From a virus, in IMG/VR virus record IMGVR_UViG_3300047564_002155, positions 32,001 to 96,000 of that record: a DNA stretch of 64,000 nucleotides. One strand, given 5' to 3'. The notes under the pieces were generated by a model, which was not told the DNA's origin, made no database searches, and worked only from the letters and a program-made list of their open reading frames with translations. Both the position numbers and the translations under genes were made by a program. Positions 1 to 61,595 of the stretch are shown here, piece by piece; the first letter of the stretch is position 1; every line of letters starts with the position of its first letter.

Positions 1-1
1 T

Positions 2-1630
2 AAACCTGTTGCTCCTGAAACAATCGCTGGGTTAATTGATGCTTATATATTCTCATCCGGAATTAATAATTTTACATTAGACCCATCTCAAAGTATACTT
101 GGTATCAATGGTCAATCTCCAACCGCAACAATCGTAAATGATAGATTACAAATGTCCGCGTCTTCTTACGGAGGTGGTACAATTTTATTATCAGCATCAC
201 TTGAGTCCGGGTCAACATATACTACTTACTTTGAAGTAGACCCAAACACTTTGAGTGGTATTGATTTTAGAGTAGCTTACAATCAAAGTTACTTAACATC
301 CTTGTCAAATTATACACAATCAATTATAAATGCTTCTACTCAATCAGTATCATTTACCACAAATAACACAGGGGTGTATGAATTTTCGCTTACATTCTTT
401 GATAGAGATGGTACTAACGGGTCGGATGGTTCAATTGATAATTTTTACATTTACGCAACACCACCGCTTGGTACTTTACTATATGATACTTTTGCTATCA
501 ATGGATTTACATCAGTTTATTTTTTAAATAATGCTATAACGGGGTCAGGTGGTGAACTTCCTACGGTATTTGTCAGTCAGTCAAAATTATTTATGTCATC
601 ATCTAATTTTGGCGGTGCTGCTGTAAATAGAAATTATAGATTGATTGAAGGCGTTGGTTATACTTCAAGTTTTGATTTGGGATTTGGAAGTGGATACTCT
701 TCTTTAAAATATGAAGTTGTTGAACCGGATGGTCGTGTTGAATACTACACAATCCTCACATCATCAGTAGCACATACCTCAAGTTTTGTAGCCGACCAGA
801 CTGGAGAATATTCATTTAGGTGGTCGTTTTATACAAGCGGTTCTAACCAAGCATCCGCATCACTTGATACATTTAAATTAAGTACAAACTATTCATTATA
901 TCCAACATCTTCTGATGTGCAAGATTTGGTTTATGAGGCTAGATACAATGTAAATTCTGGCGGTGGTACTTGGTATACTTCTTCTTGGGGGACTAACACA
1001 TCATATTCACAATCCTTTGACAAATATGTTCAAAATCTAAATGTTGAAGTTACGGAGTATGTAAATGATTGGTTAAGTGGTAATAGAACCAATAATGGTT
1101 TTATTATTTTAAAATCAAAACAAGATGAATCATCTGCTCGTAAATTGGGAACGGCTAAATTCTTCTCATCGGATACGCATACCATTTATGTTCCAAACCT
1201 TGAGGTTCGTTGGAATAATACAACATTCACAACCGGGTCTTTATCACCACAAACCAATTCTGATTTGATTGTTTATATGAAAGATTTTCAGTCAGAATAC
1301 AAGGAAAACTCTAAAACTAAAATTAGAGTATATGGTCGTGAGCGATATCCGAGTAGAAACTTTTCTTTAGCATCTCCGATTAAGAGTATAAAGTATCTTC
1401 CAACTACCACATATTATTCGGTAGTTGACGCTGAAACAAATAAGACATTTATTCCATTTGATGATACATATACAAAGTTAAGTTGTGATTCTACATCAAA
1501 TTACTTTAACTTTTGGTTTAATGGATTACAACCTGAAAGATACTACAAGTTTATATTTAAGGTTGTGGATTCTACAAATGGAACTACAAAATACTATGAT
1601 GATAATTTCTACTTCAAAGTGGTAAGATAA
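2..1630 (+). CDS. Virion structural protein, 5'-truncated; C-terminal DNRLRE/CBM96-like domain
   Basis: Frame is open from nt 2 (upstream of the tracked ATG 152), so the gene starts before the window. Ser/Thr-rich beta repeats; 'WLSGNRTNNGFIIL...KFFSSDTHTIYVPNLEVRW' resembles DNRLRE-type domains; lies in the tail/baseplate cluster. Confidence 0.5.
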   Translation, partial: KPVAPETIAGLIDAYIFSSGINNFTLDPSQSILGINGQSPTATIVNDRLQMSASSYGGGTILLSASLESGSTYTTYFEVDPNTLSGIDFRVAYNQSYLTSLSNYTQSIINASTQSVSFTTNNTGVYEFSLTFFDRDGTNGSDGSIDNFYIYATPPLGTLLYDTFAINGFTSVYFLNNAITGSGGELPTVFVSQSKLFMSSSNFGGAAVNRNYRLIEGVGYTSSFDLGFGSGYSSLKYEVVEPDGRVEYYTILTSSVAHTSSFVADQTGEYSFRWSFYTSGSNQASASLDTFKLSTNYSLYPTSSDVQDLVYEARYNVNSGGGTWYTSSWGTNTSYSQSFDKYVQNLNVEVTEYVNDWLSGNRTNNGFIILKSKQDESSARKLGTAKFFSSDTHTIYVPNLEVRWNNTTFTTGSLSPQTNSDLIVYMKDFQSEYKENSKTKIRVYGRERYPSRNFSLASPIKSIKYLPTTTYYSVVDAETNKTFIPFDDTYTKLSCDSTSNYFNFWFNGLQPERYYKFIFKVVDSTNGTTKYYDDNFYFKVVR

Positions 1631-44985: not shown

Positions 44986-45018
44986 CGTTAATGCATTAAC
45001 AAAAATGGAGAACTAAAA

Positions 45019-46044
45019 ATGCCAAATATTCAAAAAATTGTAGTTAGTGGAAGTAGTATTTCACAACTATTCAACGATGCAGGATACCTTGCATCTGCTG
45101 GTAATGGAATCGTATCATCATCAGCTCAAGTATTAGCTAATTTAAATGCGTCGGGTATTGTATCATCATCTGCCCAAATTGACGATTTATTTAATATTGA
45201 CGGTCTGATTTCATCATCAGCTCAAATCGCTGCTCTTGGTGCTGGAATTGTATCATCATCCACTCAATTAGAGGGTGCATTTGATACTCGTTATTTAAAC
45301 ACAACGGGTGATAGTGTTGTATCATCATCCGCTCAAATCAATGTAACAAACGCTATTGTAGACGCTGCTGCTGGTATTGTTTACACTAAATTAAACTTTG
45401 ATGGTTCGGGATTCCTATCATCATCTGGTCAGCTTGGCGTAAACGATACTCAAATTTCATTATCAGGTTCTAATGGTGTAAGTATTAATGGTGGAACTGA
45501 TGGTTCATTTACACTTAACCAATCTACTACGGCATCATTTAATATCGCTATTCCAAGTGGTGTAGTATCTGCTTCAGCATTCTCATCACCATCACAAGGT
45601 ACGGTTCGTGCTACAATCAATGGTGTTCAAACCGATGTGGATACCGGTCTTCAAACAGGCGACTCACCACAATTCACAAACTTAACCTTAACTGGTGATT
45701 TATTTGTAGGTGGTGATACAGTCACAATAAACACGGCAAACTTAAACATTGAAGATAAGTTTATCTTATTAAACTCCGGTTCAGGTGGTTCTTCTGCTGA
45801 AGGTGGTATTATTGTTGAGTCATCTGGTTCAGTTGGAACGGGTAACGCATTCTACTATGACGCATCAGATGCTCGTTGGGCGTTAAAAGCTGGATTAAGT
45901 GCTACAAACACCGGCGCTGTAACCGCTGAAGCGTTTATGAGTGTTGCTGTTGTTGATACTTTTGCTAACGCAACTGGTAGTGCTTACTACAAAACAGGTA
46001 ACATTATTATTGATGGTCAAGACATTTACATTGTAACTGTATAA
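45019..46044 (+). CDS. SSSAQ-repeat fibre protein
   Basis: N-terminus paralogous to 46378 (MPN..K.VVSGS..SQL.ND); 'NTANLNIEDKFILLN' fibre motif. Confidence 0.65.
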   Translation: MPNIQKIVVSGSSISQLFNDAGYLASAGNGIVSSSAQVLANLNASGIVSSSAQIDDLFNIDGLISSSAQIAALGAGIVSSSTQLEGAFDTRYLNTTGDSVVSSSAQINVTNAIVDAAAGIVYTKLNFDGSGFLSSSGQLGVNDTQISLSGSNGVSINGGTDGSFTLNQSTTASFNIAIPSGVVSASAFSSPSQGTVRATINGVQTDVDTGLQTGDSPQFTNLTLTGDLFVGGDTVTINTANLNIEDKFILLNSGSGGSSAEGGIIVESSGSVGTGNAFYYDASDARWALKAGLSATNTGAVTAEAFMSVAVVDTFANATGSAYYKTGNIIIDGQDIYIVTV

Positions 46045-46046
46045 TA

Positions 46047-46064
46047 TTGATATCAAAAAAGTTT
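46047..46064. repeat. 18-bp direct repeat, copy 2
   Basis: Identical to 44968-44985. Confidence 0.8.
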
Positions 46065-46070
46065 TGATTT

Positions 46071-46238
46071 ATGGCAAAAAACGATTCTCCAAAAGAAGTG
46101 GAACTCAAGCTCTCAACACGAGAGCTTGAGGCCCTTCTAATCGGATTGGGTGAGGTTCCCTTTAAAGGTAAAGACATTGAGTTTGTCTACCGACTCGCAG
46201 TCAAACTTCAAGAAGGAATCCTAAAGTCAAAATCCTAA
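46071..46238 (+). CDS. Small 55-aa ORF not in the ORF track (MAKNDSPKEVELKLSTRELEALLIGL...), possible fibre chaperone
   Basis: Clean ORF between a fibre gene and a terminator; chaperone role is inferred from position only. Confidence 0.6.
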   Translation: MAKNDSPKEVELKLSTRELEALLIGLGEVPFKGKDIEFVYRLAVKLQEGILKSKS

Positions 46239-46242
46239 AAAG

Positions 46243-46268
46243 AAACCCTCCCAAGTGGAGGGTTTTTT
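46243..46268 (+). terminator. Rho-independent terminator
   Basis: AAACCCTCC-CAAGT-GGAGGGTTT followed by Ts. Confidence 0.85.
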
Positions 46269-46313
46269 ATTTGATATCTATCTATTTATTTAAGATTATA
46301 ATCATAAAAATCT

Positions 46314-46360
46314 TGGTTGTTGGCCCGAAAGGGAAGTGGGCACGAAAGTGTTACCAACCA
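46314..46360 (+). ncRNA. Putative structured cis-regulatory RNA leader (multibranch, two GAAA tetraloops)
   Basis: TGGTTG/CAACCA closing stem, CCC-GAAA-GGG and GGCAC-GAAA-GTGTT hairpins; GC-rich island between a promoter-like motif and ATG 46378. Confidence 0.5.
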
Positions 46361-46377
46361 CAATAAAGGATGGGGAT

Positions 46378-48540
46378 ATGCCAAACTGGAAAAAAGTCGT
46401 AGTTAGTGGGAGTAATGTCTCACAACTTTTAAATGATGGTGTTTATTTAAGAACCACGGGTGATGGGGTTATTTCATCATCAGCTCAAATTGCGGGTGAA
46501 ATTAGTGGTGCGTTTACTGCAACATCCGCTTCTTTAAGTGGTAGAATTGATAATTTAAGTTCATCATCTACTGTGTTTGCAAGTACGGGTTCAAACACTT
46601 TCAACGGAGACCAAACTTTTAGTGGTTCTTTATTACCCGACACGACTGAAGTATTTAGTTTAGGTTCGCCTGACAAAGTATGGGAAAGTCTTTATGTAGA
46701 TGGGCAATCCATTTATATGAGAGATACTGCAACAAACACATTTGTTACAATGTCGGCTAATTCAGGTGTCCTTACCTTTAACAACACAAGATTAAATGTT
46801 CCACTTGGAATTACATCATCCAATTTAATACTAACTTCGGTAGTTAATGCTGGAACAAATACAGGTAAATTTCTTGTATTAGACTCTAATGGTAATGTAG
46901 ATTTTAGAACTGAAGTAGAGGTTCGCTCTGATATTGGTGCTCAAAGTTTATCTGCTGGTACATTATCTTCATCCGCACAAATCCAAGCATATGACATTTT
47001 CTTGGAAAAATTGGGTGATAATGTTATTTCATCATCAGCTCAATTAACAACCGAATTTGACACAAGATATCTAAATACAAGTGGTGATGGTGTAATATCA
47101 TCATCCGCTCAAGTTGACCACGATTCAACAACTAACTTTGTAGCAAACGAACACATAGACCACACCACAGTATCTATTTCAGCTGGTAGTGGTTTAAGTG
47201 GTGGTGGAACTATTGCTAGTACACGAACTTTAGCATTAGACACTTCATCTGCTCACTTTACGGATGGTGTAAAAACAAAATTAAATACTGAAGGTGTTAT
47301 TTCATCATCTGCTCAATTAACAGGTACTTTTGATACCCGTTACCTAAACACCACCGGTGATAATGTATTATCTTCATCAGCTCAAATTGCAGGTGAAATT
47401 AGTGGTGCTTTCACCGCTGCATCAGGTGGTTTCTCAACAAGAATTACTTCATTAGAAGCTGCAGGTGGAACTACATTCTCATCTTCGGTTTCTACAAGAT
47501 TAACAAATGTTGAAGGTTACACTCTTGATAATGTAACTGATAATGGTTCATCAACTACCAATGGGATTACAATTGGTGGTTTGACGGTGAATGGTAATGC
47601 TACAATTACAGGTACACTTACCGCACAACAATTTAATACTGAATTTGTATCTTCATCAATTATTTTTGAGTCCGGCTCAACAAAATTTGGTGACTCCGTA
47701 GATGATATTCATTCATTCACAGGTTCAGTAAAGTTAAATACCCAAACTGCTGCTACAACGGATACTGATAAGTTCTTGGTGTTTGATACCGGTGGTGAAA
47801 TTAAATATAGAACTGGTGCAGAAGTTTTAAGTGATATAAATCCTGGTGGTTTAATCTCATCATCTGCTCAACTTACAACCGAGTTTGATACTCGTTACCT
47901 AAATACAACAGGCGATGGAGTTATTTCATCATCAGCCCAATTAACATCCACTTTTGATACCCGTTACTTAAACACCACCGGTGATAATGTATTATCTTCA
48001 TCAGCTCAAATTGCAAGTGAAATTAGTGGTGCTTTTACTGGCGCTGGGTTTGTTGATGTTGGTAGTGCTGCGAGTGCGTCAAGGTTAGCTGTATGGCAAG
48101 ACGGAAACACTATCAGAGGGTATGAGAATATTACAATACACAATAATTCGGTAATTGAGGCTGGTTTATATTTAAGTGGCGGTTCATCCGGAATTGGTCG
48201 TAAAGTATTGCATGGTTCTGGTGGTGGTACTGGTGCTGGACAATTTTCAATATTAAATTGTGGAAACCCGGCGGATTCAATCGGAGCGCATGTTTCATAC
48301 ACAGTGCATGTCTACGGAAATAGAAATGCCGGCTTTAAAGCCGGAACTATTTTAGCAGTGTGGGATACTTCGGGTGGTAATATTCAATATTACGAAACCT
48401 CTACAAGCACATATGGTACATTACCAACCCACCAAGTTTATCCTTTTTTGACTGGAGGGTCTGTATATATTGTTTTAGCAAATAATAGTGGAACCTCATT
48501 GTATGTAACCGCTAACGCTGATATAATGACAACAATATAA
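46378..48540 (+). CDS. SSSAQ-repeat fibre protein
   Basis: Start at ATG 46378 (MPNWKKVVVSGS, paralogous to the start of 45019) rather than GTG 46336; repeated 'FDTRYLNTTGD..ISSSAQ'. Confidence 0.7.
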   Translation: MPNWKKVVVSGSNVSQLLNDGVYLRTTGDGVISSSAQIAGEISGAFTATSASLSGRIDNLSSSSTVFASTGSNTFNGDQTFSGSLLPDTTEVFSLGSPDKVWESLYVDGQSIYMRDTATNTFVTMSANSGVLTFNNTRLNVPLGITSSNLILTSVVNAGTNTGKFLVLDSNGNVDFRTEVEVRSDIGAQSLSAGTLSSSAQIQAYDIFLEKLGDNVISSSAQLTTEFDTRYLNTSGDGVISSSAQVDHDSTTNFVANEHIDHTTVSISAGSGLSGGGTIASTRTLALDTSSAHFTDGVKTKLNTEGVISSSAQLTGTFDTRYLNTTGDNVLSSSAQIAGEISGAFTAASGGFSTRITSLEAAGGTTFSSSVSTRLTNVEGYTLDNVTDNGSSTTNGITIGGLTVNGNATITGTLTAQQFNTEFVSSSIIFESGSTKFGDSVDDIHSFTGSVKLNTQTAATTDTDKFLVFDTGGEIKYRTGAEVLSDINPGGLISSSAQLTTEFDTRYLNTTGDGVISSSAQLTSTFDTRYLNTTGDNVLSSSAQIASEISGAFTGAGFVDVGSAASASRLAVWQDGNTIRGYENITIHNNSVIEAGLYLSGGSSGIGRKVLHGSGGGTGAGQFSILNCGNPADSIGAHVSYTVHVYGNRNAGFKAGTILAVWDTSGGNIQYYETSTSTYGTLPTHQVYPFLTGGSVYIVLANNSGTSLYVTANADIMTTI

Positions 48541-48584
48541 TAATTAAACAATCTGTTTGGAAAGTGAAAAACGGAAGGAACTAA

Positions 48585-49199
48585 ATGGCAAACGAATTTA
48601 TAATTAAAAATGGACTGATTATTCAAGGTGGTGGTGGACTACAAATGTCCGGCTCACTTGGAATTACTGGTTCATTAAACATATCAAGTGTAGTAAACGC
48701 AGGAACTGATACTGATAAGTTCTTGGTATTGGACTCTAATGGTAATGTAGATTTTAGAACAGGTACCGAAGTTCTTTCCGACATTGGTGCAGCCGCATCA
48801 TCCGTAAAAAACTATATAGATTTTAATAATGTAGTTGATTTTAAAACAATTGCTGATGGATACGCACCAATGTGTGGTATTACGGATATCCAAACAAGTG
48901 TAAATTCACCATTTGCACATTGGATTGCACCTTCGGATGGTTATATTGAACGAATTGAAGTAATGGTGGGTGAAACTAATACGGTGACTGATACTTTTTC
49001 AATTCAACCATATAAAAATGGTTCTGTATTGGGGTCATCGGTAGGTAATACACTGGGTGCTGTGAGAACTGTAACTGAATATGTGTTTAGCGCAACATAC
49101 TCATTCTCAAAAAGAGATAAAATTCAGTTTTATATGTCCAAAGGAACCAATACATCAGATTTGTATACATTCAATGTTTACTTCTTCGCTACAACCTAA
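48585..49199 (+). CDS. Short fibre-family protein ([11 protein letters not shown]-terminus)
   Basis: Shares the '[30 protein letters not shown]' module with 46378. Confidence 0.6.
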
Positions 49200-49219
49200 T
49201 TATTCTAAAGGATAAAAAA

Positions 49220-52200
49220 ATGAGTTTGATACACGCATTACACGAAGATACTTTGTTAGAGGTTAATGGAATACTAACCCCTATCAAGGATATCCAAATT
49301 GGCGATGTAGTAAAAAGTTACAATACTGAAGCCCAAACTATCGGTGAAAGTAAGGTTGTTTCTAAACACATCGGTTTTGATAGTGAATACTACCACATAA
49401 ATTTTAGTGATGGTTCACAATTAAAAACATCCATCAAATCACTTTTCTATTCACAAGATGGTGAATGGTTAACTCCTTTAGATGTATACCACTTAAAAAA
49501 ATCACTCCTTAACGGATTAGAAATCACCTCACTAAAATTAGTTGATGGTGATATTTCTTTTATTAGTATTGAAGTAGAACCCGACCACAACTATTTTGTA
49601 GGTAATCTATTAGTACACAACACAGGTCCTACGGGTCCTACGGGTCCTACTGGAGCTCAAGGTCCTAAAGGTCCCACCGGCTCTACCGGTTCAACGGGCC
49701 CTACCGGCGGTACTGGTCCTCAAGGTCCTATTGGCCCTAAAGGTCCAACCGGACCCGCTTCATCACCTCAAGGTGCTCAAGGTCCAAAAGGTCCTATGGG
49801 TAACTCACCACAAGGTCCAACGGGTCCTACTGGCCCAACAGGTCCTACCGGCCCAACTGGTCCTACTGGAGCTCAAGGTCCCAAAGGACCAACGGGTCCA
49901 ACTGGTCCTACTGGTCCACAAGGTCCAACAGGTCCAACGGGACCAACCGGCCCTACGGGGTCTTCACCACAAGGTCCTGCTGGTCCAAAGGGACCTACGG
50001 GTCCTACTGGCGCAACTGGCCCAACGGGTCCTACTGGTCCTACTGGCGCTAAAGGACCACAAGGTCCTACGGGTCCAACCGGTGGCACGGGTCCAAAAGG
50101 ACCACAAGGTCCTACGGGTCCAACAGGTCCAACAGGTCCTACTGGCCCTACTGGTGCAAAAGGACCACAAGGTCCTACTGGCCCACAAGGTAACCAAGGG
50201 CCAGTTGGCCCATCACCTCAAGGAGCTCAAGGTCCTAATGGACCAACAGGTCCAACCGGCCCTAAAGGACCAACGGGACCAACAGGCCCCACTGGTGCAA
50301 AAGGTCCACAAGGAGGAACAGGTCCTACTGGCCCAACCGGTGGTCAAGGTGCTACTGGCGCTCAAGGTTTCCAAGGACCAACCGGTCCTACCGGACCTAC
50401 TGGCGCAAAGGGTCCACAAGGACCCACTGGTCCACAAGGTAACCAAGGTCCTTCAGGTTCTTCACCCCAAGGTGCTCAAGGTCCAAAAGGACCAACCGGT
50501 CCAACTGGCGCTCAAGGTCCTGTTGGACCAACGGGTCCTACTGGACCAAAAGGACCTCAAGGTCCCACAGGTCCCACAGGCCCAACAGGAAACCAAGGTC
50601 CGATTGGACCAAAGGGTCCGCAGGGGCCAACGGGTGGAACTGGCCCTCAAGGTGGAGTAGGTCCTCAAGGTCCAAAGGGCGACCAAGGTAATTCACCACA
50701 AGGTGCACAAGGTCCGATAGGACCACAAGGAGCTAAAGGACCTGCGGGTTCTTCACCTAAAGGAGACCAAGGTCCACAAGGTGCTCAAGGTCCTAAAGGT
50801 CCCCAAGGAGCTAACCCACAAGGAGACCAAGGACCACAAGGTCCACAAGGTCCTAAAGGACCAACCGGGTCTTCACCTCAAGGAGCTCAAGGTCCTAAAG
50901 GACCACAAGGTCCACAAGGTAACCAAGGACCCGCACCTCAAGGTGACCAAGGTCCTAAAGGCCCACAAGGTCCACAAGGTAATCAAGGACCCGCACCTCA
51001 AGGTGACCAAGGTCCTAAAGGTCCACAAGGTCCACAAGGACAACAAGGACCTGCGCCACAAGGTGACCAAGGTCCTAAAGGTCCACAAGGTGCTCAAGGT
51101 CCGATGGGTAATTCACCTCAAGGACCACAAGGTGCAAAAGGACCACAAGGTGATAAAGGTAATACGGGCTCTTCGCCCAAAGGTGACCAAGGACCACAAG
51201 GCGCTCAAGGTCCTAAAGGTCCTCAAGGAGCTAACCCACAAGGTGACCAAGGACCACAAGGTCCACAAGGTCCTAAAGGTCCTACTGGCTCTTCACCGCA
51301 AGGTGCTCAAGGTCCTAAAGGTCCACAAGGTCCACAAGGTCAACAAGGACCCGCACCTCAAGGTGACCAAGGTCCTAAAGGCCCACAAGGTCCACAAGGT
51401 AATCAAGGACCCGCACCTCAAGGTGACCAAGGTCCTAAAGGACCACAAGGACCACAAGGACAACAAGGTCCAGCGCCTCAAGGTGACCAAGGTCCTAAAG
51501 GTCCACAAGGGCCAAAGGGTGACCAAGGTAATTCACCTCAAGGTGCTCAAGGTCCAACAGGTGCTCAAGGTGATAAAGGTAATACAGGGTCTTCACCTAA
51601 AGGAGACCAAGGTCCACAAGGTGCTCAAGGTCCTAAAGGCCCTCAAGGAGCTAACCCACAAGGTGACCAAGGTCCACAAGGCCCACAAGGTCCTAAAGGT
51701 CCTACTGGGTCTTCACCACAAGGCGCTCAAGGTCCTAAAGGTCCTCAAGGTGATAAAGGTCCAACTGGGTCTTCACCGCAAGGTGCTCAAGGTCCTAAAG
51801 GACCACAAGGTCCACAAGGTAACCAAGGTCCTGCTCCTCAAGGTGACCAAGGTCCTAAAGGTCCTCAAGGCGCTCAAGGTAATCAAGGACCGCAAGGTCC
51901 AATTGGACCTCAAGGTCCTAAAGGCCCTCAAGGTCCTAAAGGTCCTCAAGGAGACAAGGGTCCTCAAGGAGCTGCTCCTCAAGGTGACCAAGGTCCACAG
52001 GGACCAAAGGGTGACCAAGGTAATTCACCTCAAGGCGCTCAAGGTCCTAAAGGTCCTCAAGGAGACAAAGGACCACAGGGTGCGGCACCTCAAGGTGCTC
52101 AAGGTCCTAAAGGTCCACAGGGGGATAAAGGACCACAAGGTTCAATAGGTAACCAAGGAGACCAAGGTCCACAAGGTCCGCAAGGACCAAAGGGTGATGC

Positions 52201-53311
52201 TGGAACCTCACCACAAGGTGCTCAAGGTCCTAAAGGTCCTCAAGGAGACAAAGGTCCTCAAGGAGCTTCACCACAAGGAGCTCAAGGTCCACAAGGTGTT
52301 AAAGGACCACAAGGTCCTAAAGGAACTTCACCTCAAGGTGACCAAGGTCCACAAGGTGCTCAAGGTCCTAAAGGTCCTCAAGGTGATTCACCACAAGGAG
52401 ACCAAGGACCACAAGGTCCTAAAGGAGACCAAGGTAATTCACCTCAAGGTGCTCAAGGTCCTATTGGGGCTCAAGGTCCTAAAGGTCCTCAAGGAGACAA
52501 AGGTCCTCAAGGTGCAAAAGGTCCTCAAGGAGACAAAGGTCCTCAAGGAGACAAGGGTCCTCAAGGAGCTAATCCACAAGGTGACCAAGGTCCACAAGGT
52601 GAAAAAGGACCACAGGGGGATAAGGGAACCTCACCACAAGGTGCTCAAGGTCCTAAAGGTCCTCAAGGAGACAAAGGTCCTCAAGGAGCTTCACCACAAG
52701 GAGCGCAAGGCCCACAAGGTGTTAAAGGACCACAAGGTCCTAAAGGAACTTCACCTCAAGGTGACCAAGGTCCACAAGGTGCTCAAGGTCCTAAAGGTCC
52801 TCAAGGTGATTCACCACAAGGAGACCAAGGACCACAAGGTCCTAAAGGAGACCAAGGTAATTCACCTCAAGGTGCTCAAGGTCCTATTGGGGCTCAAGGT
52901 CCTAAAGGTCCTCAAGGAGACAAAGGTCCTCAAGGTGCAAAAGGTCCTCAAGGAGACAAAGGTCCTCAAGGAGACAAGGGTCCTCAAGGAGCTAATCCAC
53001 AAGGTGACCAAGGTCCTCAAGGACCACAAGGTGCTCAAGGTCCTAAAGGAACGTCACCACAAGGTCCACAAGGAGCTAAAGGTCCTCAAGGTCCTAAAGG
53101 AACTTCACCTCAAGGTGCTCAAGGACCACAAGGTCCTCAAGGAGACAAAGGTCCTCAAGGAGACAAAGGTCAAAAGGGAGAGGCTGCTCTTGGAACTTTA
53201 ATTAGTGGTGTATCACCAGGATTAACTTGGAACGGGTCTCGTGGATTTTTAAGTTTCAATAATGGTGGTGCTACATATGTAATTCATATGTATGTAAGTG
53301 GTTCATTCTAA
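49220..53311 (+). CDS. Hint-domain collagen-like protein, chain 1
   Basis: Residues ~6-134 Hint-like ([14 protein letters not shown]...[18 protein letters not shown]|T); ~1186-residue Gly-X-Y region 49625-53182; short C-terminal domain ending Y.SGSF. Confidence 0.9.
49625..53182 (+). repeat. Gly-X-Y repeats with 420-bp and 423-bp super-repeats
   Basis: Blocks recur at ~50761/51181/51601 (420 bp) and 52202/52625 (423 bp). Confidence 0.85.
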
Positions 53312-53334: not shown

Positions 53335-56300
53335 ATGAGTGTTAAAAACGGACAATTAGTCAGATTATATGATGGAAGTGAAACCGCTATTGAAAATCTC
53401 ATTAGTGGTTCTTCCATTGTAGCTGGTGTTGCTTTACCTGGACTTGGATTGGGTGAAACTGATTATAAAACTTGGTCTTCTACTGATATATCATCCACGA
53501 CATTACAACCCGCAAATGTTGTAACAAGAAATACTTTCATCAATTCAGCTATTGAAAAAATTGAATTTAACGATGGTAATCTTGTCGTATCACCAATGCA
53601 AGAAATCCTTGTAAAAGGTGGTGATAATGTATATCTTTTTAAAAGAGCAAAAGATGTAGTCTTAAATTCAGACCATTTAGTAAAATGGAATGGTTCTTCA
53701 CTTGTAGATGAACTAATTACTGAAGCTTATACCATAGACCCGGAAGACGCTTCAAACCTAAACATTGAAGACCTTGATGTTTACCTTGTAAATGGGTATG
53801 TAGTTCACAACGCAGGGACTTCTTATTTTACATCAGATTGTTTAACTTCAGATAATCTTGGTTGTGGTAACTGGCCTAATTTTGATCCTGGCTCATACTC
53901 CAACACTTGTTATTATGTATCGGGTGCTCCTGGAACTGATTGTGCTTATACTTGTGCCACTTGTGAAGAGATTGAATTTGATGCAAACTCCGATGGTGAA
54001 CCTTGTGGTTCTAATAATGAGTGTGACGCAGATACATCACAAGGTCCAACAGGTCCAACAGGTCCTCAAGGTGCAGTCGGTCCTAAAGGTGATAATGGGC
54101 CAACTGGTGGAACGGGCCCGACCGGTCCTCAAGGTGCTGTGGGTCCAATCGGCCCTACGGGTGATACTCCTGACGCACTAACGGGTCCTCAAGGTCCCGT
54201 AGGTCCAAAAGGACCATCGGGTAATTTGGGACCACAAGGTCCCACGGGACCAACAGGTCCAACGGGTGGACAAGGTGGGCAAGGTTCTCAAGGTGCTGTG
54301 GGGCCTGTGGGAGATTCTCCAACCGGAGGACAAGGTAACCAAGGACCTGTTGGTCCTACTGGCCCAACGGGGCCCGCAGGAGCATTAGGTCCGGTAGGAC
54401 CTATCGGACCAACCGGCGACCAAGGACCCACCGGACCAACCGGCCCAACGGGCGCTTCACCCACTGGCCCAGGTGGTGACCAAGGTCCAACGGGCGGAAC
54501 GGGTCCAACCGGTCCTGGTGGAGACCAAGGTCCAACAGGCCCAACAGGTGCAACGGGTGCTTCACCCACTGGTGGTGGTGGTGACCAAGGTCCTGTGGGA
54601 CCTCAAGGGCCAAAAGGACCTTCGGGTAATTTAGGAGCTCAAGGACCTGTTGGCCCAACCGGCCCAACTGGTCCTGTTGGACCTACTGGCGATACAGGTG
54701 CCTCACCAACCGGTCCAGGCGGTGACCAAGGACCCACCGGCCCTACGGGTCCTACGGGCCCCACTGGCGATAGAGGTCCACAAGGTCCTATGGGACCAAC
54801 GGGTGCTTCCCCAACAGGTGGTGGTGGAGACCAAGGACCAACAGGCGCTCAAGGACCTGTTGGTGGAACTCCAGGTCCTGGTGCAGCGGGTCCAATAGGA
54901 CCAGGTGGCGACCAAGGTTCACAAGGTCCTCAAGGTCCAATTGGGGCTTCCCCAACAGGTGGTGGTGGAGACCAAGGACCTCAAGGAGGTCAAGGTTCGC
55001 AAGGACCTACTGGAGATATTGGTGTTGGTGGCGACCAAGGTCCAACTGGCGGACAAGGTAATCAAGGTCCACAAGGATTACAAGGTCCAAAAGGACCTTC
55101 GGGTAATTTAGGTCCTCAAGGACCAATAGGACCTACCGGAGCTGGTGGACCTGCTGGGGATAATGCTCCTAAAGGCGCTCAAGGAGACCAAGGAAATACA
55201 GGTCCTATTGGACCCACCGGTGATGCTGGCCCCAAAGGAGCTCAAGGTGCTCAAGGAAATCAAGGAAATCAAGGTCCAACTGGTGATGCTGCTTTAACAG
55301 GTCCTCAAGGACCAATTGGAGGTGGGGGTGACCAAGGTCCTCAAGGACCTGCAGGAGCAAAAGGTGCTCAAGGTCCAGTTGGTGGTCAAGGAGACCAAGG
55401 CCCTCAAGGACCCGCTGGTCCTAAAGGTGCTCAAGGACCAATTGGAGGTGGAGGTAACCAAGGTCCTCAAGGACCTGCTGGCGGTAAGGGTGCTCAAGGT
55501 CCAATTGGCGGTCAAGGAGACCAAGGTCCTATGGGACCTTCGGGTAATTTAGGCGCTCAAGGACCAATGGGTCCTAAAGGTGACCAAGGTCCAACTGGTG
55601 ATGCAGCCCCAAAAGGTGCTCAAGGAGACCAAGGAAATACAGGTCCTATTGGACCCACCGGTGATGCTGGCCCCAAAGGAGCTCAAGGTGCTCAAGGAAA
55701 TCAAGGTAACCAAGGTCCAACAGGTGATGCTGCTTTAACAGGTCCTCAAGGACCTGTGGGTGTGAAGGGTGACCAAGGTCCTCAAGGACCTGCTGGAGGT
55801 AAAGGCTCTCAAGGTCCTATTGGTGGACAAGGAGACCAAGGTCCTCAAGGGCCTGCTGGGGCTAAAGGTGCCCAAGGTCCAACAGGCGCTGGTGGTGACC
55901 AAGGTCCTCAAGGACCTGCTGGTGGTAAAGGTGCTCAAGGTCCTATTGGTGGGCAAGGCGACCAAGGTCCTAAAGGACCATCGGGTAATTTAGGCCCCCA
56001 AGGTCCAACGGGTGTAAAAGGTAATCAAGGTCCAACCGGCGATGCTGCTGCTAAAGGTGCTCAAGGGGACCAAGGAAATACAGGTCCTATTGGTCCAACT
56101 GGCGATGCTGGTCCTAAAGGTGCTCAAGGTGCTCAAGGTAACCAAGGTAACCAAGGACCAACCGGCGATGCTGCATTAACAGGCGCTCAAGGTCCTATGG
56201 GACCTAAAGGTGACCAGGGTCCAGTGGGTACACCCGCCGAAACCGGGGCTCAAGGTCCTGTTGGCGTAAAAGGTGACCAAGGTCCTCAAGGGCCTGCTGG

Positions 56301-57918
56301 GGCTAAAGGTGCTCAAGGACCTGTTGGTGGACAAGGTGACCAAGGTCCTCAAGGACCACAAAGTGTAGCTACCGAAGGTGGTGATGGATATACTGGTGGA
56401 CCACAAGGTGCTGTTGGTCCAACGGGTGACCAAGGACCTAAAGGTGATGTGGGTCAAAAAGGTGATGATGGTCCTAAAGGGGCTCAAGGTCCTCAAGGAT
56501 TACAAGGTCCTAAAGGTCCTTCGGGAAATTTAGGAGCTCAAGGTCCTGTTGGTGTAAAGGGTGATACTGGTCAAAAAGGTGATGATGGTCCTAAAGGAGA
56601 CCAAGGACCAACTGGTGTTAAGGGAGACCAAGGACCTGCAGGAGAACAAGGACCTAAAGGACCTCAAGGAGCTCAAGGTAATCAGGGTAGACAAGGACCA
56701 ACCGGAGATGCTGCTCTAACAGGCGCTGCTGGTCCAATTGGACCCAAAGGTGACCAAGGTCAAAAAGGTGATGATGGTCCTAAAGGCGCTCAAGGTCCTC
56801 AAGGTAGAGTAGGCCCGCAAGGAGACCAAGGTGATGCTTTTGACGCTTTAACACCACAAGGACCTCAAGGAAATATAGGACCTGTTGGAGTTAAAGGTGA
56901 TGCTGGTCCTAAAGGCGCTCAAGGTCCTCAAGGACTTCAAGGTCAAAAAGGACCATCTGGAAACACGGGCGCTCAAGGACCTCAAGGACCACAAAGTGAT
57001 AAGGGTTCTACGATTGGACCTAAAGGGGACCAAGGATTTTCAGGCGATTATGAAGACACTGCGCCTAAAGGTGACCAAGGTCAAAAGGGTGACCAGGGTC
57101 AAAAGGGGGCTGATGGTCCAAAGGGTGCTCAAGGGGCTCAAGGATTTCAAGGTCCCAAAGGTGACCAAGGACCCACCAATTTAACAGGCCCACAAGGTGC
57201 TGTTGGTGTAAAAGGTGATGTTGGTGTAAAAGGTGATGATGGTCCTAAAGGCGCTCAAGGTCCTCAAGGTAGAGTAGGTCCGCAAGGTGACCAAGGTGAT
57301 GCTTTTGACGCTTTAACCCCACAAGGACCTCAAGGAAATGTAGGACCTGTTGGAGTTAAAGGTGATGCTGGTCCCAAAGGAGCTCAAGGTCCTCAAGGAT
57401 TACAAGGTCCAAAAGGACCGTCTGGAAACGCCGGTGCTCAAGGACCTCAAGGACCACAAAGTGATAAGGGTTCTACCATCGGTCCTAAAGGAGACCAAGG
57501 ATTTTCAGGCGATTATGAAGACACTGCACCCAAAGGCGATGTTGGACCTCAAGGTGACCAAGGTCAAAAGGGGGCTGATGGTCCTAAAGGAGCTCAAGGT
57601 GCCGCGGGAAATCAAGGACCACAAGGTGGCCAAGGAACATCCGCATTATCGGGCGCTGAAGGTGCTGTTGGACCACAAGGTGAACAAGGACCAACGGGAG
57701 ATTCTCCAACTGCTGAACAAAATGGACCACAAGGAGCACAAGGTATAGCTCCGGGTCCTAAAGGTGATTTTGGTCAAAAAGGTGAAAAGGGAAGTCAACT
57801 TGAAGGTGGTTACTTTGAGTGGAGTGATACTGATAATAAACTATACTTTAAAGAGTATGGTTGGACTGCCGGTGATAGATTATTTGTTGTAGAATTATAC
57901 AGGTCAGGTTCATTTTAA
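53335..57918 (+). CDS. Hint-domain collagen-like protein, chain 2 (with 8-Cys domain)
   Basis: Residues 2-159 Hint-like ([21 protein letters not shown]...[19 protein letters not shown]|A); 8-Cys segment; ~1252-residue Gly-X-Y region 54043-57798; C-terminus LYRSGSF. Confidence 0.9.
54043..57798 (+). repeat. Gly-X-Y repeats with 441-bp and 465-bp super-repeats
   Basis: Blocks recur at 55180/55621/56062 (441 bp) and 56767/57232 (465 bp). Confidence 0.85.
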
Positions 57919-57966: not shown

Positions 57967-58572
57967 ATGGAAAAGAAATTTATATTCAATCAAGACCCAT
58001 CACGATTTTCAGCTGACCATACCAATTATTATTGGTTTCAAAATGGATTTACTGCTGAAGAATTGGCTACGATTGAACAAATGACTTCCAATTTACCATT
58101 TGAAGCCGCGGGCGTTGGTGAGTTGGATAAATCACGAGTAGAAAGCGAATATCGTAAATCATCAATTAAATGGTGTCCTCAAAACGAAGAGTGGGAATGG
58201 GTTTACGATAAGCTTGGAACTATGATTTCTGAAGCAAACAACAATATGTGGAAATTTGATTTGACTCATATGAGAGAACAAATCCAATATACTGAATACT
58301 ACGAAGGTGGTGGTCAGTATGACTGGCATATGGATTGTGGTATTGGTATTCAAGCCCAACGCAAAGTTTCGGTTACTGTTCAATTATCACAACCTGATGA
58401 ATACGAGGGTGGTGATTTACAATTTATGTTAGGTGCTGGTCAGATTTGGGCTCCACGAGTTCAAGGGGCTGCTGTTATTTTCCCATCATTTTTCTTACAC
58501 CGAGTTACGCCTGTAACCAAGGGGACTCGTAAGTCATTTGTTCTTTGGGTTGGTGGAGAACCATATAGATAA
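57967..58572 (+). CDS. 2OG-Fe(II) oxygenase (prolyl-4-hydroxylase/PKHD-like)
   Basis: 'YDWHMD', 'RKVSVTVQLS..DEYEGGDL', 'IFPSFFLHRVTPVTKGTRKSFVLW' give the HxD...H...R motif. Confidence 0.9.
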   Translation: MEKKFIFNQDPSRFSADHTNYYWFQNGFTAEELATIEQMTSNLPFEAAGVGELDKSRVESEYRKSSIKWCPQNEEWEWVYDKLGTMISEANNNMWKFDLTHMREQIQYTEYYEGGGQYDWHMDCGIGIQAQRKVSVTVQLSQPDEYEGGDLQFMLGAGQIWAPRVQGAAVIFPSFFLHRVTPVTKGTRKSFVLWVGGEPYR

Positions 58573-58575
58573 TCT

Positions 58576-59874
58576 ATGAGAAAAACTAAATTACCATCTG
58601 CATTAGTTTATGGGTGGGATAAGTTTGGTGAATTCTCCATCCCATCTACACTATCAGAACACGAAGGACTTGTAGAAGATGTAGTGATTTTCTCTTGCGA
58701 AGACCATTTTAATTTTTATGTTGATTTTTCAAAATATCAGCCAGATGTAATTATTACATTTGGTGATAAAAATCAATATGAATCTATTTTAGAAGCTTCT
58801 GATGAAAACCTTGTAAATACAAAGTGGACTCACATTGATGAAATTTTAAGTGATGAGGAGCTTGCAAATAAAGTAGATGAATTGTCTACCTATTGGAGTT
58901 GTGGTTCAAATCAAAATGTTTTTGGTTCTAAAGACCTACCATTCTTTTCAGCATTTACCGGAACTTACAAAACCGGTGATAGAATTTTCAGAACCTATAA
59001 TGGTCTAAAAAATCAAACTTATAAAAATTGGGAATGGGTTGTTATTGATGACTCGCCTGAAGATGATTTTGATACTTGGAATAAACTACAAGAAATCGCA
59101 TCCCGAGACCATAGAGTAAAAATTCATAGAATTACACCAAATACGGGCGGTAATGTTGGTGAGGTTAAACACCGAGCTGCTATGTTATGTAATGGTGATT
59201 GGTTATTGGAGTATGACCATGATGATGTGATTGCATCAACATACTTTGAAGAGTGTGTCAAAGCATCAAAGCAATATCCTGATGCTGGATTTATTTTTAC
59301 CGGATGTGCTGAACTTTACGAAGATGGTAAACACAAACAATATGGTCCAATTGACCCAACGGGTTATGGTAGATATGGTTTTAATAACTACACTTGGGCT
59401 TATTCGTGGCACGAATGGGTGGAAATTGATGGTAAAAAATATATTGGAGGATTTGCTCCAAGTATAAATCCAAAAACTATTAGATATAATATGGGTATGC
59501 CAAATCACGCACGAATGTGGCATAGAGATGTGTATCATAAAGTCAGAGGTCACAATAGATATATTTCCGTAGCAGATGATTTTGAACTGATTGTAAAAAC
59601 ATTCCTAACAACACGAATGTTAAAAATTGATAAAATCCTATATATGCAATGGAATAATTATTCAAGCACTGTTGATATGAACTTAACTGATATTAATAGA
59701 AGAGCACGAATAATTAGAAATTACTATGATAAAGCTATTCACGAGCGAATCCTTGAACTTGGAAAAGAAGATTGGGATTGGGATGAAGAAACTCAAAAAT
59801 GCCATCACGCTTGGTGGATAGATAGAAGTAGATATTTTGAAAAAGAACAAGTTTTAAATTACACGATAAAATAA
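58576..59874 (+). CDS. GT2-family (GT-A) glycosyltransferase with N-terminal extension
   Basis: 'NQTYKNWEWVVIDDSP', 'GDWLLEYDHDD' (DxD), 'ADDFEL'. Confidence 0.85.
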   Translation: MRKTKLPSALVYGWDKFGEFSIPSTLSEHEGLVEDVVIFSCEDHFNFYVDFSKYQPDVIITFGDKNQYESILEASDENLVNTKWTHIDEILSDEELANKVDELSTYWSCGSNQNVFGSKDLPFFSAFTGTYKTGDRIFRTYNGLKNQTYKNWEWVVIDDSPEDDFDTWNKLQEIASRDHRVKIHRITPNTGGNVGEVKHRAAMLCNGDWLLEYDHDDVIASTYFEECVKASKQYPDAGFIFTGCAELYEDGKHKQYGPIDPTGYGRYGFNNYTWAYSWHEWVEIDGKKYIGGFAPSINPKTIRYNMGMPNHARMWHRDVYHKVRGHNRYISVADDFELIVKTFLTTRMLKIDKILYMQWNNYSSTVDMNLTDINRRARIIRNYYDKAIHERILELGKEDWDWDEETQKCHHAWWIDRSRYFEKEQVLNYTIK

Positions 59875-59882
59875 GGAACAAT

Positions 59883-61595
59883 ATGAAAGTTTTGTTTGTA
59901 GTTGGATATCAGAAAACCCCATTTAATCCTTTTGTTTGGATTAAAGAAGGAATTGGTGGTTCTGAATACGCTGTTATAAAATTAGCTCATCAAATGTCAA
60001 AGCAGGGTGATGAGGTTGTTGTCACAGGTCAAGTTGTTCCGTGTGAAGTTGAGGGTATTAAGTATATACCATATGAATCCCTTGGAACAAATCAACATTA
60101 TGATGTTGTAATTGCTACAAATTATATTCACTATATTAATGAACTTGACTCACGAGAAATAACTTTTGACAAATCTTATTTTTGGATTCATAATAATGAA
60201 TATTACGCATATTGGAATGGTCAAATATTAGAGGATTTTGGAAAAGAACATTTACAAAATTCAAGGATGACTAATGTGATTGCAGTATCGGATTACTCCG
60301 CAAAAATACTTGAAGAAAAGTATACTGAAATGGTGGGAAAGGTCAGAGTTATTCCAAACGCTATTGACCCAACTGACTGGAATGGTATCCGATTTGATAA
60401 CAAACGAAAAAACAAATTTGTATATACATCCGCTGCTGATAGAGGTTTAAAAAACCTACTTGAAATCTGGCCGCAGATTCGTGACGCCAGACCCGAAGCG
60501 ACTCTTTGGGTAGCAAGTCCACCATACGCATTAGATTGGTATGAAGACTATAAGGGATTCTATGATGGTGTTCATTTTGTGGATAATCTACCACCAAGAG
60601 AATTATATGAGTTGATTGCTTCATCGGAGTATTGGGTATATCCATCACAATACGATGAAACCTATTGTATTACAGCATTGGAAATGATGATGGGTGAGGT
60701 TTCAATCATAACAACCGATACCGGAAATTTAGCAAGTATCATTCCAGCGCGAGGTGCTGTGGTATCTTCTGAAAGTGATGTTGAAACTTTAAAAAAACAA
60801 ATTTTAGAAAAACTTGAATTTGTAGAATCGGATGCTGCTTTTAGAAAGTTTTCAAAAGAAAATGCTAAATCTTTTGTTCTAAAACAAACTTGGGAAAATG
60901 TAGAAAAAATTTGGAGAAATCTTATGAACGAAACACAACCCAACCGACAAGAACAAACTGATATGTTAGCTTTACATCCTGAATTATATTCTTACAAATA
61001 TGACAAAATTGGATGGTTGGAACGATTTGTAACCTATGATGCGAGAATTAGAGAATGGGATTTGATTTCAGATGAACAATTTGATGGATGTTTTACATTT
61101 CCATTATTTACTGAAGAATTTTGTAAGATGATTCGTGAAGAGGCAGAACATTCAAAAAAATGGACTTACAAAAGACACGAATATTATCCAACCACGGATA
61201 TGCTATTATCTGAATTGGGATTGAATGAAATTTACTATGAAGTTCTCCAAACCTATGTAATGCAATTTATGATTCACAAATTTGGTTTAGAAGGTAGGGG
61301 ATGGGATTCTTTAAATTCTGAAAACTTTTTAGCAAGATACACACCAGACACTCAAGGTCATCTTTCAATACACCACGACTCTTCTGATTTAACTTGTTTA
61401 GTCCAACTATCAGACCTTGATGAATATGAAGGTGGTGGAACTTGGTTTTGGAGACAAAAAAAATTAATAAAAGGTGGAATCGGATATTGTACGGTACATC
61501 CTGGAAATATAACTCACAAGCACGGAGCAAGACCTGTAAGTAAGGGAAGTCGTTATATTATTGTATCGTTTATGAAAAATTTGGAAAGATATTAA
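59883..61595 (+). CDS. GT4 (GT-B) glycosyltransferase fused to PLOD-like lysyl-hydroxylase domain
   Basis: 'GIGGSE', 'IPNAID', '[15 protein letters not shown]' (EX7E); C-terminal 'FPLFTEEFC...YPTTDM...[21 protein letters not shown]...YEGGGT...[25 protein letters not shown]'. Confidence 0.88.
   Translation: [570 protein letters not shown]

What the first reader, a model, noticed from the sequence alone, without database searches (positions are those of the whole stretch)
49220..49624. N-terminal Hint domain on collagen 1 looks like a one-way self-cleaving prodomain
Seen: the domain keeps the C-terminal blocks ([18 protein letters not shown]) with Thr at +1, immediately followed by GPT repeats. 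The position-1 nucleophile appears to be Ala (ALHEDTLL versus C-x-x-x-G-T-x-V), block B TxxH lacks His (KTSIKS), and only ~5 residues precede it. Established: His-Asn cyclisation gives C-terminal cleavage; residue 1 and block-B His drive N-terminal reactions. Inference: the domain removes itself to expose the collagen N-terminus, perhaps acting as folding chaperone or timer, like a procollagen N-propeptide with built-in protease. Ala1 with Thr+1 also leaves class-2-intein-like ligation possible.
Basis: partly seen in the sequence, partly recalled or inferred. Interest (0 to 1): 0.75.

Follow-up and report, generated by a model that had tools for sequence, protein, structure and literature searches.

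The report
Self-cutting Hint cap on phage collagen
A giant collagen-like fibre protein of an uncultured marine T4-like phage starts with an intein-type (Hint) domain that has lost the residues for cutting at its front but keeps those for cutting at its back, so it probably snips itself off the fibre, though nobody has tested this.

Summary
ORF 49220-53311 (1363 aa) has a 5-residue leader (MSLIH), a 129-residue Hint domain (Ala6-Asn134), about 1,185 residues of Gly-X-Y repeat and a 43-residue C-terminal domain. The Hint fold is certain: AF2 pLDDT 90; Z 16-19.6 against BIL domains and mini-inteins. Many structural alignments run model 6..134 to intein residue 1..terminal Asn.

In 15 distinct relatives from 24 IMG/VR phage contigs:
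- Position 1 is Gly or Ala, never Cys.
- Block-B His is absent, against 208/227 His in more distant Hint relatives.
- Block-F His and His-Asn|Thr-Gly-Pro are invariant, with synonymous codon changes.
- A stop lies 0-8 codons before the start.

The next gene (53335) carries a second, very divergent Hint. It has no N-extein, an invariant VHN and a variable non-nucleophilic +1 residue.

Best reading (about 0.65): a one-way, Asn-cyclising, self-removing N-terminal pro-domain. Cleavage itself is untested. The chaperone or timer role is speculation. Class-2 or class-3 splicing is unlikely, because the required residues are missing. One correction: the block-B register is one residue off (Ser71/Ser74, not Thr70/Lys73).

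This scan reached the same reading earlier on at least 8 other phage genomes. I found no paper describing it. It is a new variant of a known kind.

The parts
49208..49212 (+). Shine-Dalgarno-like AAGGA, 7 nt before the start codon
   Evidence: Read in the sequence. All 14 relatives have a GGA/GGGG-type motif at the same distance.
49220..49234 (+). Five-residue leader Met1-His5 (MSLIH), the vestigial 'N-extein'. Ile(-2) and His(-1) are invariant in the family.
   Evidence: A stop lies 0-8 codons upstream in all loci. The 5' 30 nt are also conserved at synonymous sites.
49235..49621 (+). Hint (Hedgehog/intein) domain, Ala6 to Asn134
   Evidence: Pfam PT-HINT E 2e-5. PDB 2lwy E 2e-4. AF2 pLDDT 90. 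Foldseek and VIA-align give Z up to 19.6, with model 6..134 aligned to intein 1..terminal Asn.
49235..49237 (+). Position A:1 = Ala6 (GCA), the place of the Cys/Ser nucleophile
   Evidence: The family has Gly 8, Ala 3, Ser 1. Distant relatives aligned at this column have Cys in 5 of 7. Structural alignments start at model residue 6 and chain residue 1.
49430..49441 (+). Degenerate block B, Ser71-Ile-Lys-Ser74 (B:7 to B:10), with no His
   Evidence: At column 74 the family has Ile, Ser or Ala. Other Hint relatives have His in 208/227.
49565..49621 (+). Blocks F and G: Ser116 (F:4), His123 (F:13), His133 (G:6), Asn134 (G:7)
   Evidence: The stretch from Ser116 to Tyr125 and the HN|TGP junction are invariant in 15 distinct sequences. 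His and Asn codons vary synonymously.
49619..49624 (+). Predicted scissile bond Asn134|Thr135
   Evidence: Inference from the canonical intein step 3, Asn cyclisation (PMC4031507). Not tested.
49622..53179 (+). Collagen-like Gly-X-Y region (about 1,185 residues), starting Thr-Gly-Pro directly after Asn134
   Evidence: Translation.
53180..53311 (+). C-terminal domain of 43 residues ending SGSF, plus the stop codon. It is shared with collagen 2 and with relatives.
53335..53811 (+). Second, divergent N-terminal Hint domain (Met1/Ser2 to Asn159) of the next collagen gene. It ends VVHN|A.
   Evidence: The AF2 model has pLDDT 69. All 50 listed Foldseek hits are inteins or Hedgehog Hint domains (best E 4.7e-4). 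V157, H158 and N159 are invariant in 9 sequences down to 27% identity, while +1 is A, V, P, F or D.

Best explanation
The first 134 residues are a single-turnover autoprocessing Hint domain reduced to one reaction.

Proposed mechanism, after folding:
- Asn134, helped by His133 (G:6) and His123 (F:13), cyclises to a succinimide.
- This breaks the Asn134-Thr135 bond.
- The 15-kDa cap leaves, and the collagen-like fibre begins at Thr-Gly-Pro.

No reaction is possible at the front. Position 1 is Ala or Gly, block-B His is missing, and only five residues precede the domain. So nothing is spliced.

What is shown: the fold, the residue pattern, its conservation, and the same design in a second, paralogous collagen gene.

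What is inferred: that cleavage occurs. The purpose is inferred more weakly still. The most likely one is a maturation step in fibre assembly. That would be the N-terminal counterpart of the self-cleaving C-terminal S74 chaperone domains of other phage and virus fibres.
For: Fold and register.

Loss of the N-terminal machinery is family-wide, while more distant relatives keep it. A:1 is Cys in 0/12 family sequences against 5/7 relatives. B:10 is His in 0/12 against 208/227.

The C-terminal machinery is invariant. F:13 His, G:6 His, G:7 Asn and +1 Thr are constant in 15 distinct sequences at 42-47% identity to the window. Their codons change synonymously: CAC/CAT, AAC/AAT and four Thr codons.

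Architecture is fixed. A stop lies 0-8 codons before the Met in 24 loci.

The second paralogue has the same design. Hint 2 is a Hint fold. It has no N-extein, an invariant VHN among only 18 invariant columns, and a +1 residue (A, V, P, F or D) that cannot splice.

F:4 is Ser, not Asp. In the Pho RadA intein, Asp F:4 is proposed to hold back Asn cyclisation until the branched intermediate forms (PMC4031507).

From established knowledge, not tested here: inteins mutated at residue 1 (Cys1Ala) still cleave at their C-terminus and are used as self-cleaving purification tags. Type-A BIL domains also autocleave.
Against: There is no direct evidence of cleavage: no cultured relative, no proteomics, no expression data. 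In many inteins Asn cyclisation is slow unless the N-terminal steps have happened (10-fold in Mxe GyrA). Mutating B:10 His or F:4 Asp sharply reduces C-terminal cleavage in the class 2 KlbA intein. So a domain lacking both could be a poor cleaver. In some Hint 2 relatives +1 is Pro, which may disfavour cleavage. The Pfam score is just under the gathering cut-off.
Confidence: 0.65

Rival explanations
1. The Hint domain is not cleaved. It stays on the fibre as a structural module, for example the end that docks to the virion or a distal knob, and His-Asn is kept for structural or historical reasons.
For: No cleavage has been shown. Phage fibres usually attach through their N-terminal domain (general knowledge). 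Loss of B:10 His and F:4 Asp reduces C-terminal cleavage in some inteins.
Against: His G:6 and Asn G:7 are catalytic side chains. They are invariant in two families that share almost no other sequence: hhalign aligns only the last 22 residues. The two Hint domains are far more divergent from each other than the shared C-terminal domain is, which is the better candidate for a common docking or trimerising site.
Confidence: 0.2
2. The domain splices. A class-2-like attack by Thr135, or a class-3-like attack by Ser116 (F:4), joins the MSLIH leader to Thr135.
For: Position 1 is non-nucleophilic and +1 is Thr, as in class 3 inteins. F:4 is an invariant hydroxyl residue, Ser116. Ile(-2) and His(-1) are invariant.
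Against: Class 2 needs Cys+1, His B:10 and Asp F:4. Class 3 needs Cys F:4, Trp B:12, Thr G:5 and His B:10. None of these is present. Hint 2 has no N-extein and a non-nucleophilic +1 residue, yet keeps HN. The leader may be conserved at the nucleotide level: Ile is ATA in 15/15 sequences although ATA is 15% of Ile codons in the window's genes.
Confidence: 0.05
3. It is a decaying remnant of a selfish intein or BIL insertion with no present function.
For: Half of the catalytic apparatus is gone.
Against: The domain is full-length, confidently folded and present in every relative found. It shows purifying selection at the remaining catalytic residues and is duplicated in design in the neighbouring gene. 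No relative lacking the domain was found.
Confidence: 0.05

Closest known systems
Type-A bacterial intein-like (BIL) domains / Pfam PT-HINT PF07591 (C. thermocellum BIL, PDB 2lwy; Tetrahymena BUBL BIL2, PDB 6y75/6tmm)
   Same: These are the best sequence and structure matches. They are small Hint domains without an endonuclease that end in His-Asn. They are usually followed by a non-nucleophile (Lys at +1 in 88/162 relatives) and act by autocleavage and not by obligatory splicing.
   Different: They have Cys at position 1 and block-B His, and they sit inside or near the C-terminal end of secreted or toxin proteins. Here there is no nucleophile and no B:10 His, the position is the extreme N-terminus, and the host protein is a phage collagen.
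Engineered cleavage-only mini-inteins (for example Cys1Ala Ssp DnaB or the Mtu RecA delta-I-CM tags)
   Same: The layout is the same: an N-terminal Hint with Ala at position 1, His-Asn at the end, and the target protein released by Asn cyclisation. Ssp DnaB and Mtu RecA mini-inteins are strong structural matches (Z 16-18). The behaviour of these tags is from my own knowledge.
   Different: Those are laboratory mutants that retain block-B His. This is a natural, conserved design.
Peptidase S74 intramolecular chaperone domain of phage tailspikes and fibres, also fused to collagen repeats in polinton-like viruses (PMC12220804; PMC7824862)
   Same: It is a self-cleaving accessory domain attached to a trimeric or low-complexity viral fibre and removed after assembly.
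   Different: It is unrelated in fold and chemistry (Ser-Lys dyad), sits at the C-terminus, and its chaperone role is proven. There is no homology here.
Collagen-like virion proteins of 'hairy' jumbo phages (Erwinia phage Y3 gp110, Yersinia phage fHe-Yen9-02 gp333)
   Same: They are the only cultured-phage hits of Hint 1 (E 1e-4 to 1e-2). They also combine Gly-X-Y repeats with a Hint domain, and their C-terminal block is very like the window's.
   Different: They are the mirror image. The Hint is at the C-terminus with Cys1, a TxxH block B, HN and a 10-residue tail, so it is equipped for N-terminal cleavage or splicing.
Class 3 inteins (mycobacteriophage Bethlehem DnaB; PMC2807308)
   Same: They have a non-nucleophilic residue 1, Thr/Ser at +1 and a phage association.
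   Different: The Trp/Cys/Thr triplet and block-B His are absent here, and there is no real N-extein.

Membership tests
Hint (Hedgehog/intein) fold superfamily, MEROPS clan PD | Horseshoe-shaped all-beta Hint fold | tested here: met
   AF2 pLDDT 90. VIA-align Z 16-19.6 at rmsd 1.6-2.0 A over 122-137 residues against BIL domains, inteins and Hedgehog. Foldseek E down to 2e-10.
Hint (Hedgehog/intein) fold superfamily, MEROPS clan PD | Significant sequence similarity to Hint families | tested here: met
   PT-HINT E 2.1e-5, though 25.3 bits is under the 27.7 gathering score. 2lwy E 2.3e-4. 323 library hits at E<=1e-3.
Class 1 intein | Cys/Ser/Thr nucleophile at position 1 | tested here: not met
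   Ala6 in the window. The family has Gly, Ala and one Ser.
Class 1 intein | Block-B His (B:10) | tested here: not met
   Ser74 in the window and Ile, Ser or Ala in the family, against His in 208/227 other Hint relatives.
Class 1 intein | Inserted between two extein halves of a host protein | tested here: not met
   Only 2-6 residues precede the domain, and a stop lies 0-8 codons upstream in 24 loci.
Class 1 intein | C-terminal His-Asn followed by Cys/Ser/Thr | tested here: met
   His133-Asn134|Thr135, invariant.
Class 2 (KlbA-type) intein | Ala1 with a Cys+1 nucleophile, plus Thr B:7, His B:10 and Asp F:4 (PMC4031507) | tested here: not met
   Ala/Gly at position 1 is present, but +1 is Thr, B:10 is Ser/Ile/Ala and F:4 is Ser.
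Class 3 intein | Trp B:12 / Cys F:4 / Thr G:5 triplet with His B:10 (PMC2807308) | tested here: not met
   B:12 is Leu or Lys, F:4 is Ser, G:5 is Val, Leu, Ile, Met or Phe, and there is no B:10 His.
Type-A BIL / PT-HINT domain | Small Hint ending in His-Asn, without an endonuclease, closest by sequence | tested here: met
Type-A BIL / PT-HINT domain | N-terminal Cys and block-B His, which drive N-terminal cleavage | tested here: not met
Asparagine peptide lyase (functional class; PMC3207474) | Self-cleavage by cyclisation of the Asn at the scissile bond | not testable with these tools
   The residues needed are present and conserved. The reaction needs an expression experiment.
Peptidase S74 intramolecular chaperone | Homology to PF13884 with a Ser-Lys dyad | tested here: not met
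   No Pfam hit at E<=10 in residues 1-147. It is a functional analogy only.

The most novel reading that the evidence does not exclude
The Hint cap is a built-in assembly checkpoint of a viral 'procollagen' pathway. While attached, the bulky monomeric domain keeps the N-terminal end of the chains open or soluble. The slow, single-turnover Asn cyclisation sets the time the neighbouring 2OG oxygenases and glycosyltransferases have to modify the unfolded chains, before the cap leaves and the triple helix closes. This would be a natural self-cleaving tag, and a new functional class of Hint domain (C-cleavage only), used by a whole lineage of marine T4-like phages.
Probability: 0.15. Interest if true: 0.8.

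Novelty: new variant of a known kind. Interest (0 to 1): 0.6.

Why it matters
Hint domains are known as splicing elements (inteins), as Hedgehog cholesterol-transfer modules and as toxin-releasing BIL/PT-HINT domains. A natural Hint stripped down to C-terminal cleavage and placed as an N-terminal cap would be a fourth use of the fold. It would be the natural counterpart of the engineered self-cleaving intein tags used in protein purification. It would also add a self-processing step to a phage-encoded collagen maturation locus that holds two collagens, hydroxylases and glycosyltransferases. That parallels animal procollagen N-propeptide removal, but without a separate protease. These small, nucleophile-free domains (129 residues here) could also be useful biotechnological cleavage tags.

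Tried and rejected
- A word-indexed protein search with residues 1-136 of the full-length protein found nothing at E<=0.001. The length window was 749-2386 aa.
- Megablast of 45000-49700 against cultured phages gave no match.
- tblastn of Hint 2 and of the C-terminal 60 residues against cultured phages gave no match.
- A scan of 185,579 prokaryote genomes with the family alignment found no relative, so no prophage or host clue.
- hhalign of the Hint 1 family against Hint 2 aligned only the last 22 residues (probability 3.9). The fold assignment of Hint 2 therefore rests on the AF2 model (pLDDT 69, N-terminal 27 residues unreliable) and its Foldseek hits.
- NCBIfam intein_Cterm matched only weakly (E 0.086, under the cut-off). 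PHROGs gave only marginal hits.
- Six literature searches found no description of an N-terminal Hint on a collagen or fibre protein. sought the phage Y3 paper, which was not found.
- Class 2 and class 3 splicing were considered and rejected on their defining residues.
- A fusion with the upstream gene was rejected: there is a stop, a 20-nt spacer and a Shine-Dalgarno.
Full report
**What is there.** The window is part of a 168-kb, about 94% complete IMG/VR virus record. It holds a phage structural module on one strand, with large terminase, portal and major head protein. The capsid protein is closest to Microcystis phage Mel-JY01 (57%), the Flavobacterium 'immuto' phages (53%) and Rhodothermus phage RM378 (40%). 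These are distant T4-like myoviruses.

ORF 49220-53311 encodes 1363 residues, in four parts:
- a five-residue leader, MSLIH
- a globular domain up to Asn134
- Gly-X-Y repeats starting at Thr135-Gly-Pro
- a 43-residue C-terminal domain ending SGSF

The start is well defined. AAGGA lies 7 nt upstream, and the preceding gene's stop is 20 nt upstream.

**The domain is a Hint domain.** Three sequence searches agree:
- Pfam PT-HINT matches at E 2.1e-5, just under its gathering score.
- The C. thermocellum bacterial intein-like domain 2lwy matches at E 2.3e-4.
- An exhaustive phmmer search of 1.84 billion representatives gives 323 hits at E<=1e-3.

An AlphaFold2 model built on 18 family sequences has mean pLDDT 90. 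Foldseek finds only BIL domains and mini-inteins, down to E 2e-10 with TM about 0.8. VIA-align gives Z 16-19.6 at rmsd 1.6-2.0 A. Many of these structural alignments run from model residue 6 to 134 and from chain residue 1 to the terminal Asn. Examples are Mtu RecA 1..440, Ssp DnaE 1..159, PI-PfuI 1..454 and the Msm DnaB class 3 intein 1..139. This fixes Ala6 as intein position 1 and Asn134 as the C-terminal Asn.

**The family.** A scan of IMG/VR found 24 loci with the same gene, giving 15 distinct Hint sequences. Three are 92-94% identical to the window and the rest 42-47%. In every locus an in-frame stop lies 0-8 codons before the Met, and a Shine-Dalgarno precedes it. The short leader is therefore real.

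The alignment shows:
- The leader always ends Ile-His.
- Position 1 is Gly in most sequences and Ala in the window's clade. One metagenomic fragment has Ser.
- The C-terminal stretch from Ser116 to the His-Asn|Thr-Gly-Pro junction is almost completely invariant.

The His, Asn and Thr codons at the junction differ synonymously between sequences. The conservation is therefore at the protein level.

**Quantifying the asymmetry.** I built a profile from the family and aligned all 257 Hint domains found in the 150 best library hits. The table compares the collagen family with the other Hint relatives.

| Position | Window residue | Collagen family | Other Hint relatives |
|---|---|---|---|
| A:1 | Ala6 | Cys 0/12 | Cys 5/7 (where this column is aligned) |
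| B:7 | Ser71 | Ser 12/12 | Thr 196/225 |
| B:10 | Ser74 | His 0/12 | His 208/227 |
| F:13 | His123 | His 8/8 | His 168/216 |
| G:6 | His133 | His 7/7 | His 204/207 |
| G:7 | Asn134 | Asn 7/7 | Asn 204/204 |

The collagen family has lost the two residues that drive chemistry at the N-terminal junction. It has kept all three that drive Asn cyclisation. Its conclusion still holds, because no His occurs anywhere in residues 69-76.

**A second example next door.** The following gene (53335-57918) is a second giant collagen. Its N-terminal 159 residues have no Pfam hit and align to Hint 1 only over the last 22 residues. Eight relatives lie at the same place in related loci. An AF2 model from these nine sequences is of middling quality (pLDDT 69, first 27 residues poor). 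All 50 listed Foldseek matches are nevertheless inteins or Hedgehog Hint domains (best E 4.7e-4).

In this family the domain begins at residue 1 or 2, so there is no N-extein at all. Val-His-Asn is among only 18 invariant columns, at identities down to 27%. The +1 residue is Ala, Val, Pro, Phe or Asp, none of which can splice. Two deeply diverged paralogues thus share the same 'front disabled, back intact' design. That is hard to explain unless the back end is used.

**Mechanism.** Established intein chemistry (review PMC4031507) assigns roles as follows:
- Step 1 uses Cys/Ser A:1, with Thr B:7 and His B:10.
- Step 3, Asn cyclisation that cleaves the C-terminal junction, uses Asn G:7, assisted by His G:6 and His F:13.

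Only the second set is present here. The most likely reaction is therefore Asn134 cyclisation. It would release a 134-residue cap and a collagen that begins at Thr135.

Position F:4 is Asp in most inteins. In the Pho RadA intein it is proposed to hold Asn G:7 back until the branched intermediate forms. Here it is an invariant Ser, which is consistent with an uncoupled, constitutive cleaver.

From my own knowledge, Cys1Ala mini-inteins cleave at their C-terminus and serve as self-cleaving purification tags. This protein has that same layout naturally.

There are caveats. C-terminal cleavage is slower without the N-terminal steps in some inteins. In the class 2 KlbA intein it depends on His B:10 and Asp F:4. 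Efficiency therefore cannot be predicted, and no experiment exists.

**Splicing options.** Class 2 requires Cys+1, Thr B:7, His B:10 and Asp F:4. Class 3 requires Trp B:12, Cys F:4, Thr G:5 and His B:10 (PMC2807308). The family has Thr+1 and a hydroxyl residue at F:4 but none of the other residues. Hint 2 cannot splice at all. I give splicing about 5%.

The invariant Ile-His before position 1 is unexplained. It may partly reflect a nucleotide-level constraint on the first 30 nt. Ile is ATA in 15/15 sequences although ATA is only 15% of Ile codons in the window's genes, and Leu7 is TTA in 15/15.

**Purpose.** This part is inference. A removable cap on a repetitive trimeric fibre recalls the C-terminal S74 intramolecular chaperone domains of phage tailspikes. 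Those are also found fused to collagen repeats in polinton-like viruses. The C-terminal 43-residue domain is shared by both collagens and all relatives. It is the better candidate for a common trimerising or docking module.

Right after the two collagens come a 2OG-Fe(II) oxygenase, an unassigned ORF and a glycosyltransferase-oxygenase fusion. A cap that delays closure of the helix until the chains are modified is attractive but untested.

**Comparison with the known.** The closest families are type-A BIL / PT-HINT domains. This domain shares their fold and C-terminal motif. It fails their N-terminal features and has a different context. The only cultured-phage hits are virion proteins of the 'hairy' jumbo phages Erwinia Y3 and Yersinia fHe-Yen9-02. 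These also contain Gly-X-Y repeats but carry a complete Hint (Cys1, TxxH, HN plus a 10-residue tail) at the C-terminus, a mirror image. Six literature searches found no description of an N-terminal cleavage-only Hint on a fibre or collagen.

Earlier notes of this scan record the same reading on at least eight other phage genomes and on this window. They agree with my result but are not independent evidence.

**Verdict.** It is a new variant of a known kind. Interest is 0.6.

Noticed in passing
window 53812-54040: Between Hint 2 and the Gly-X-Y region of collagen 2 lies a region of about 75 residues with about 11 Cys. It is variable in length and sequence among relatives. If Hint 2 is cleaved, it would become the new N-terminus of that fibre.
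   Followed up: no
L008, L010, L016, L019-L026 (about residues 88-105 of the Hint 1 homologues, from locus position 6001): Several Hint 1 clades carry a short Cys-rich insert (4-5 Cys, e.g. CGCGDCKCG) in the loop between the two lobes, where inteins usually carry their endonuclease. It may bind metal. The window's own copy lacks it.
   Followed up: no
L002:2996-4432 (Erwinia phage Y3 gp110) and L001:2966-4408 (Yersinia phage fHe-Yen9-02): These jumbo-phage virion proteins combine an N-terminal collagen-like run with a complete C-terminal Hint (Cys1, THEHP, VHN plus a 10-residue tail). This is the mirror image of the window's architecture.
   Followed up: partly
window 49220-49250 and the same place in L004-L026: The first 30 nt or so of the gene are conserved at synonymous sites: ATA for Ile in 15/15 and TTA for Leu in 15/15 sequences. 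This suggests a constraint on the mRNA 5' end in addition to, or instead of, one on the leader peptide.
   Followed up: partly
window 57967-61595: Directly after the two collagens come a 2OG-Fe(II) oxygenase (201 aa), an unassigned 432-aa ORF and a glycosyltransferase fused to a second 2OG-Fe(II) oxygenase domain (570 aa). They are likely collagen-modifying enzymes.
   Followed up: no
window 53180-53308 and 57790-57915: Both collagens and all full-length relatives end in a related domain of about 40 residues finishing SGS plus one or two residues (SGSF in the window's two collagens). It has no match in cultured phages. It is a candidate trimerisation or docking module.
   Followed up: partly
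library proteins P0064, P0071, P0108, P0121, P0125, P0146: Several metagenomic proteins begin inside the Hint fold. They have a Met a few residues before the conserved I-x-D-[IV]-x-x-G-D motif, lack the first strand and Cys1, and end in VHN. They may be further nucleophile-less N-terminal Hint caps, or gene-call and contig-end artefacts.
   Followed up: no
library proteins P0014, P0051, P0057, P0065, P0102 and others: Most of the more distant hits are proteins made of 2-5 tandem Hint domains, each ending VHN-Lys and often followed at once by the Cys1 of the next copy.
   Followed up: no
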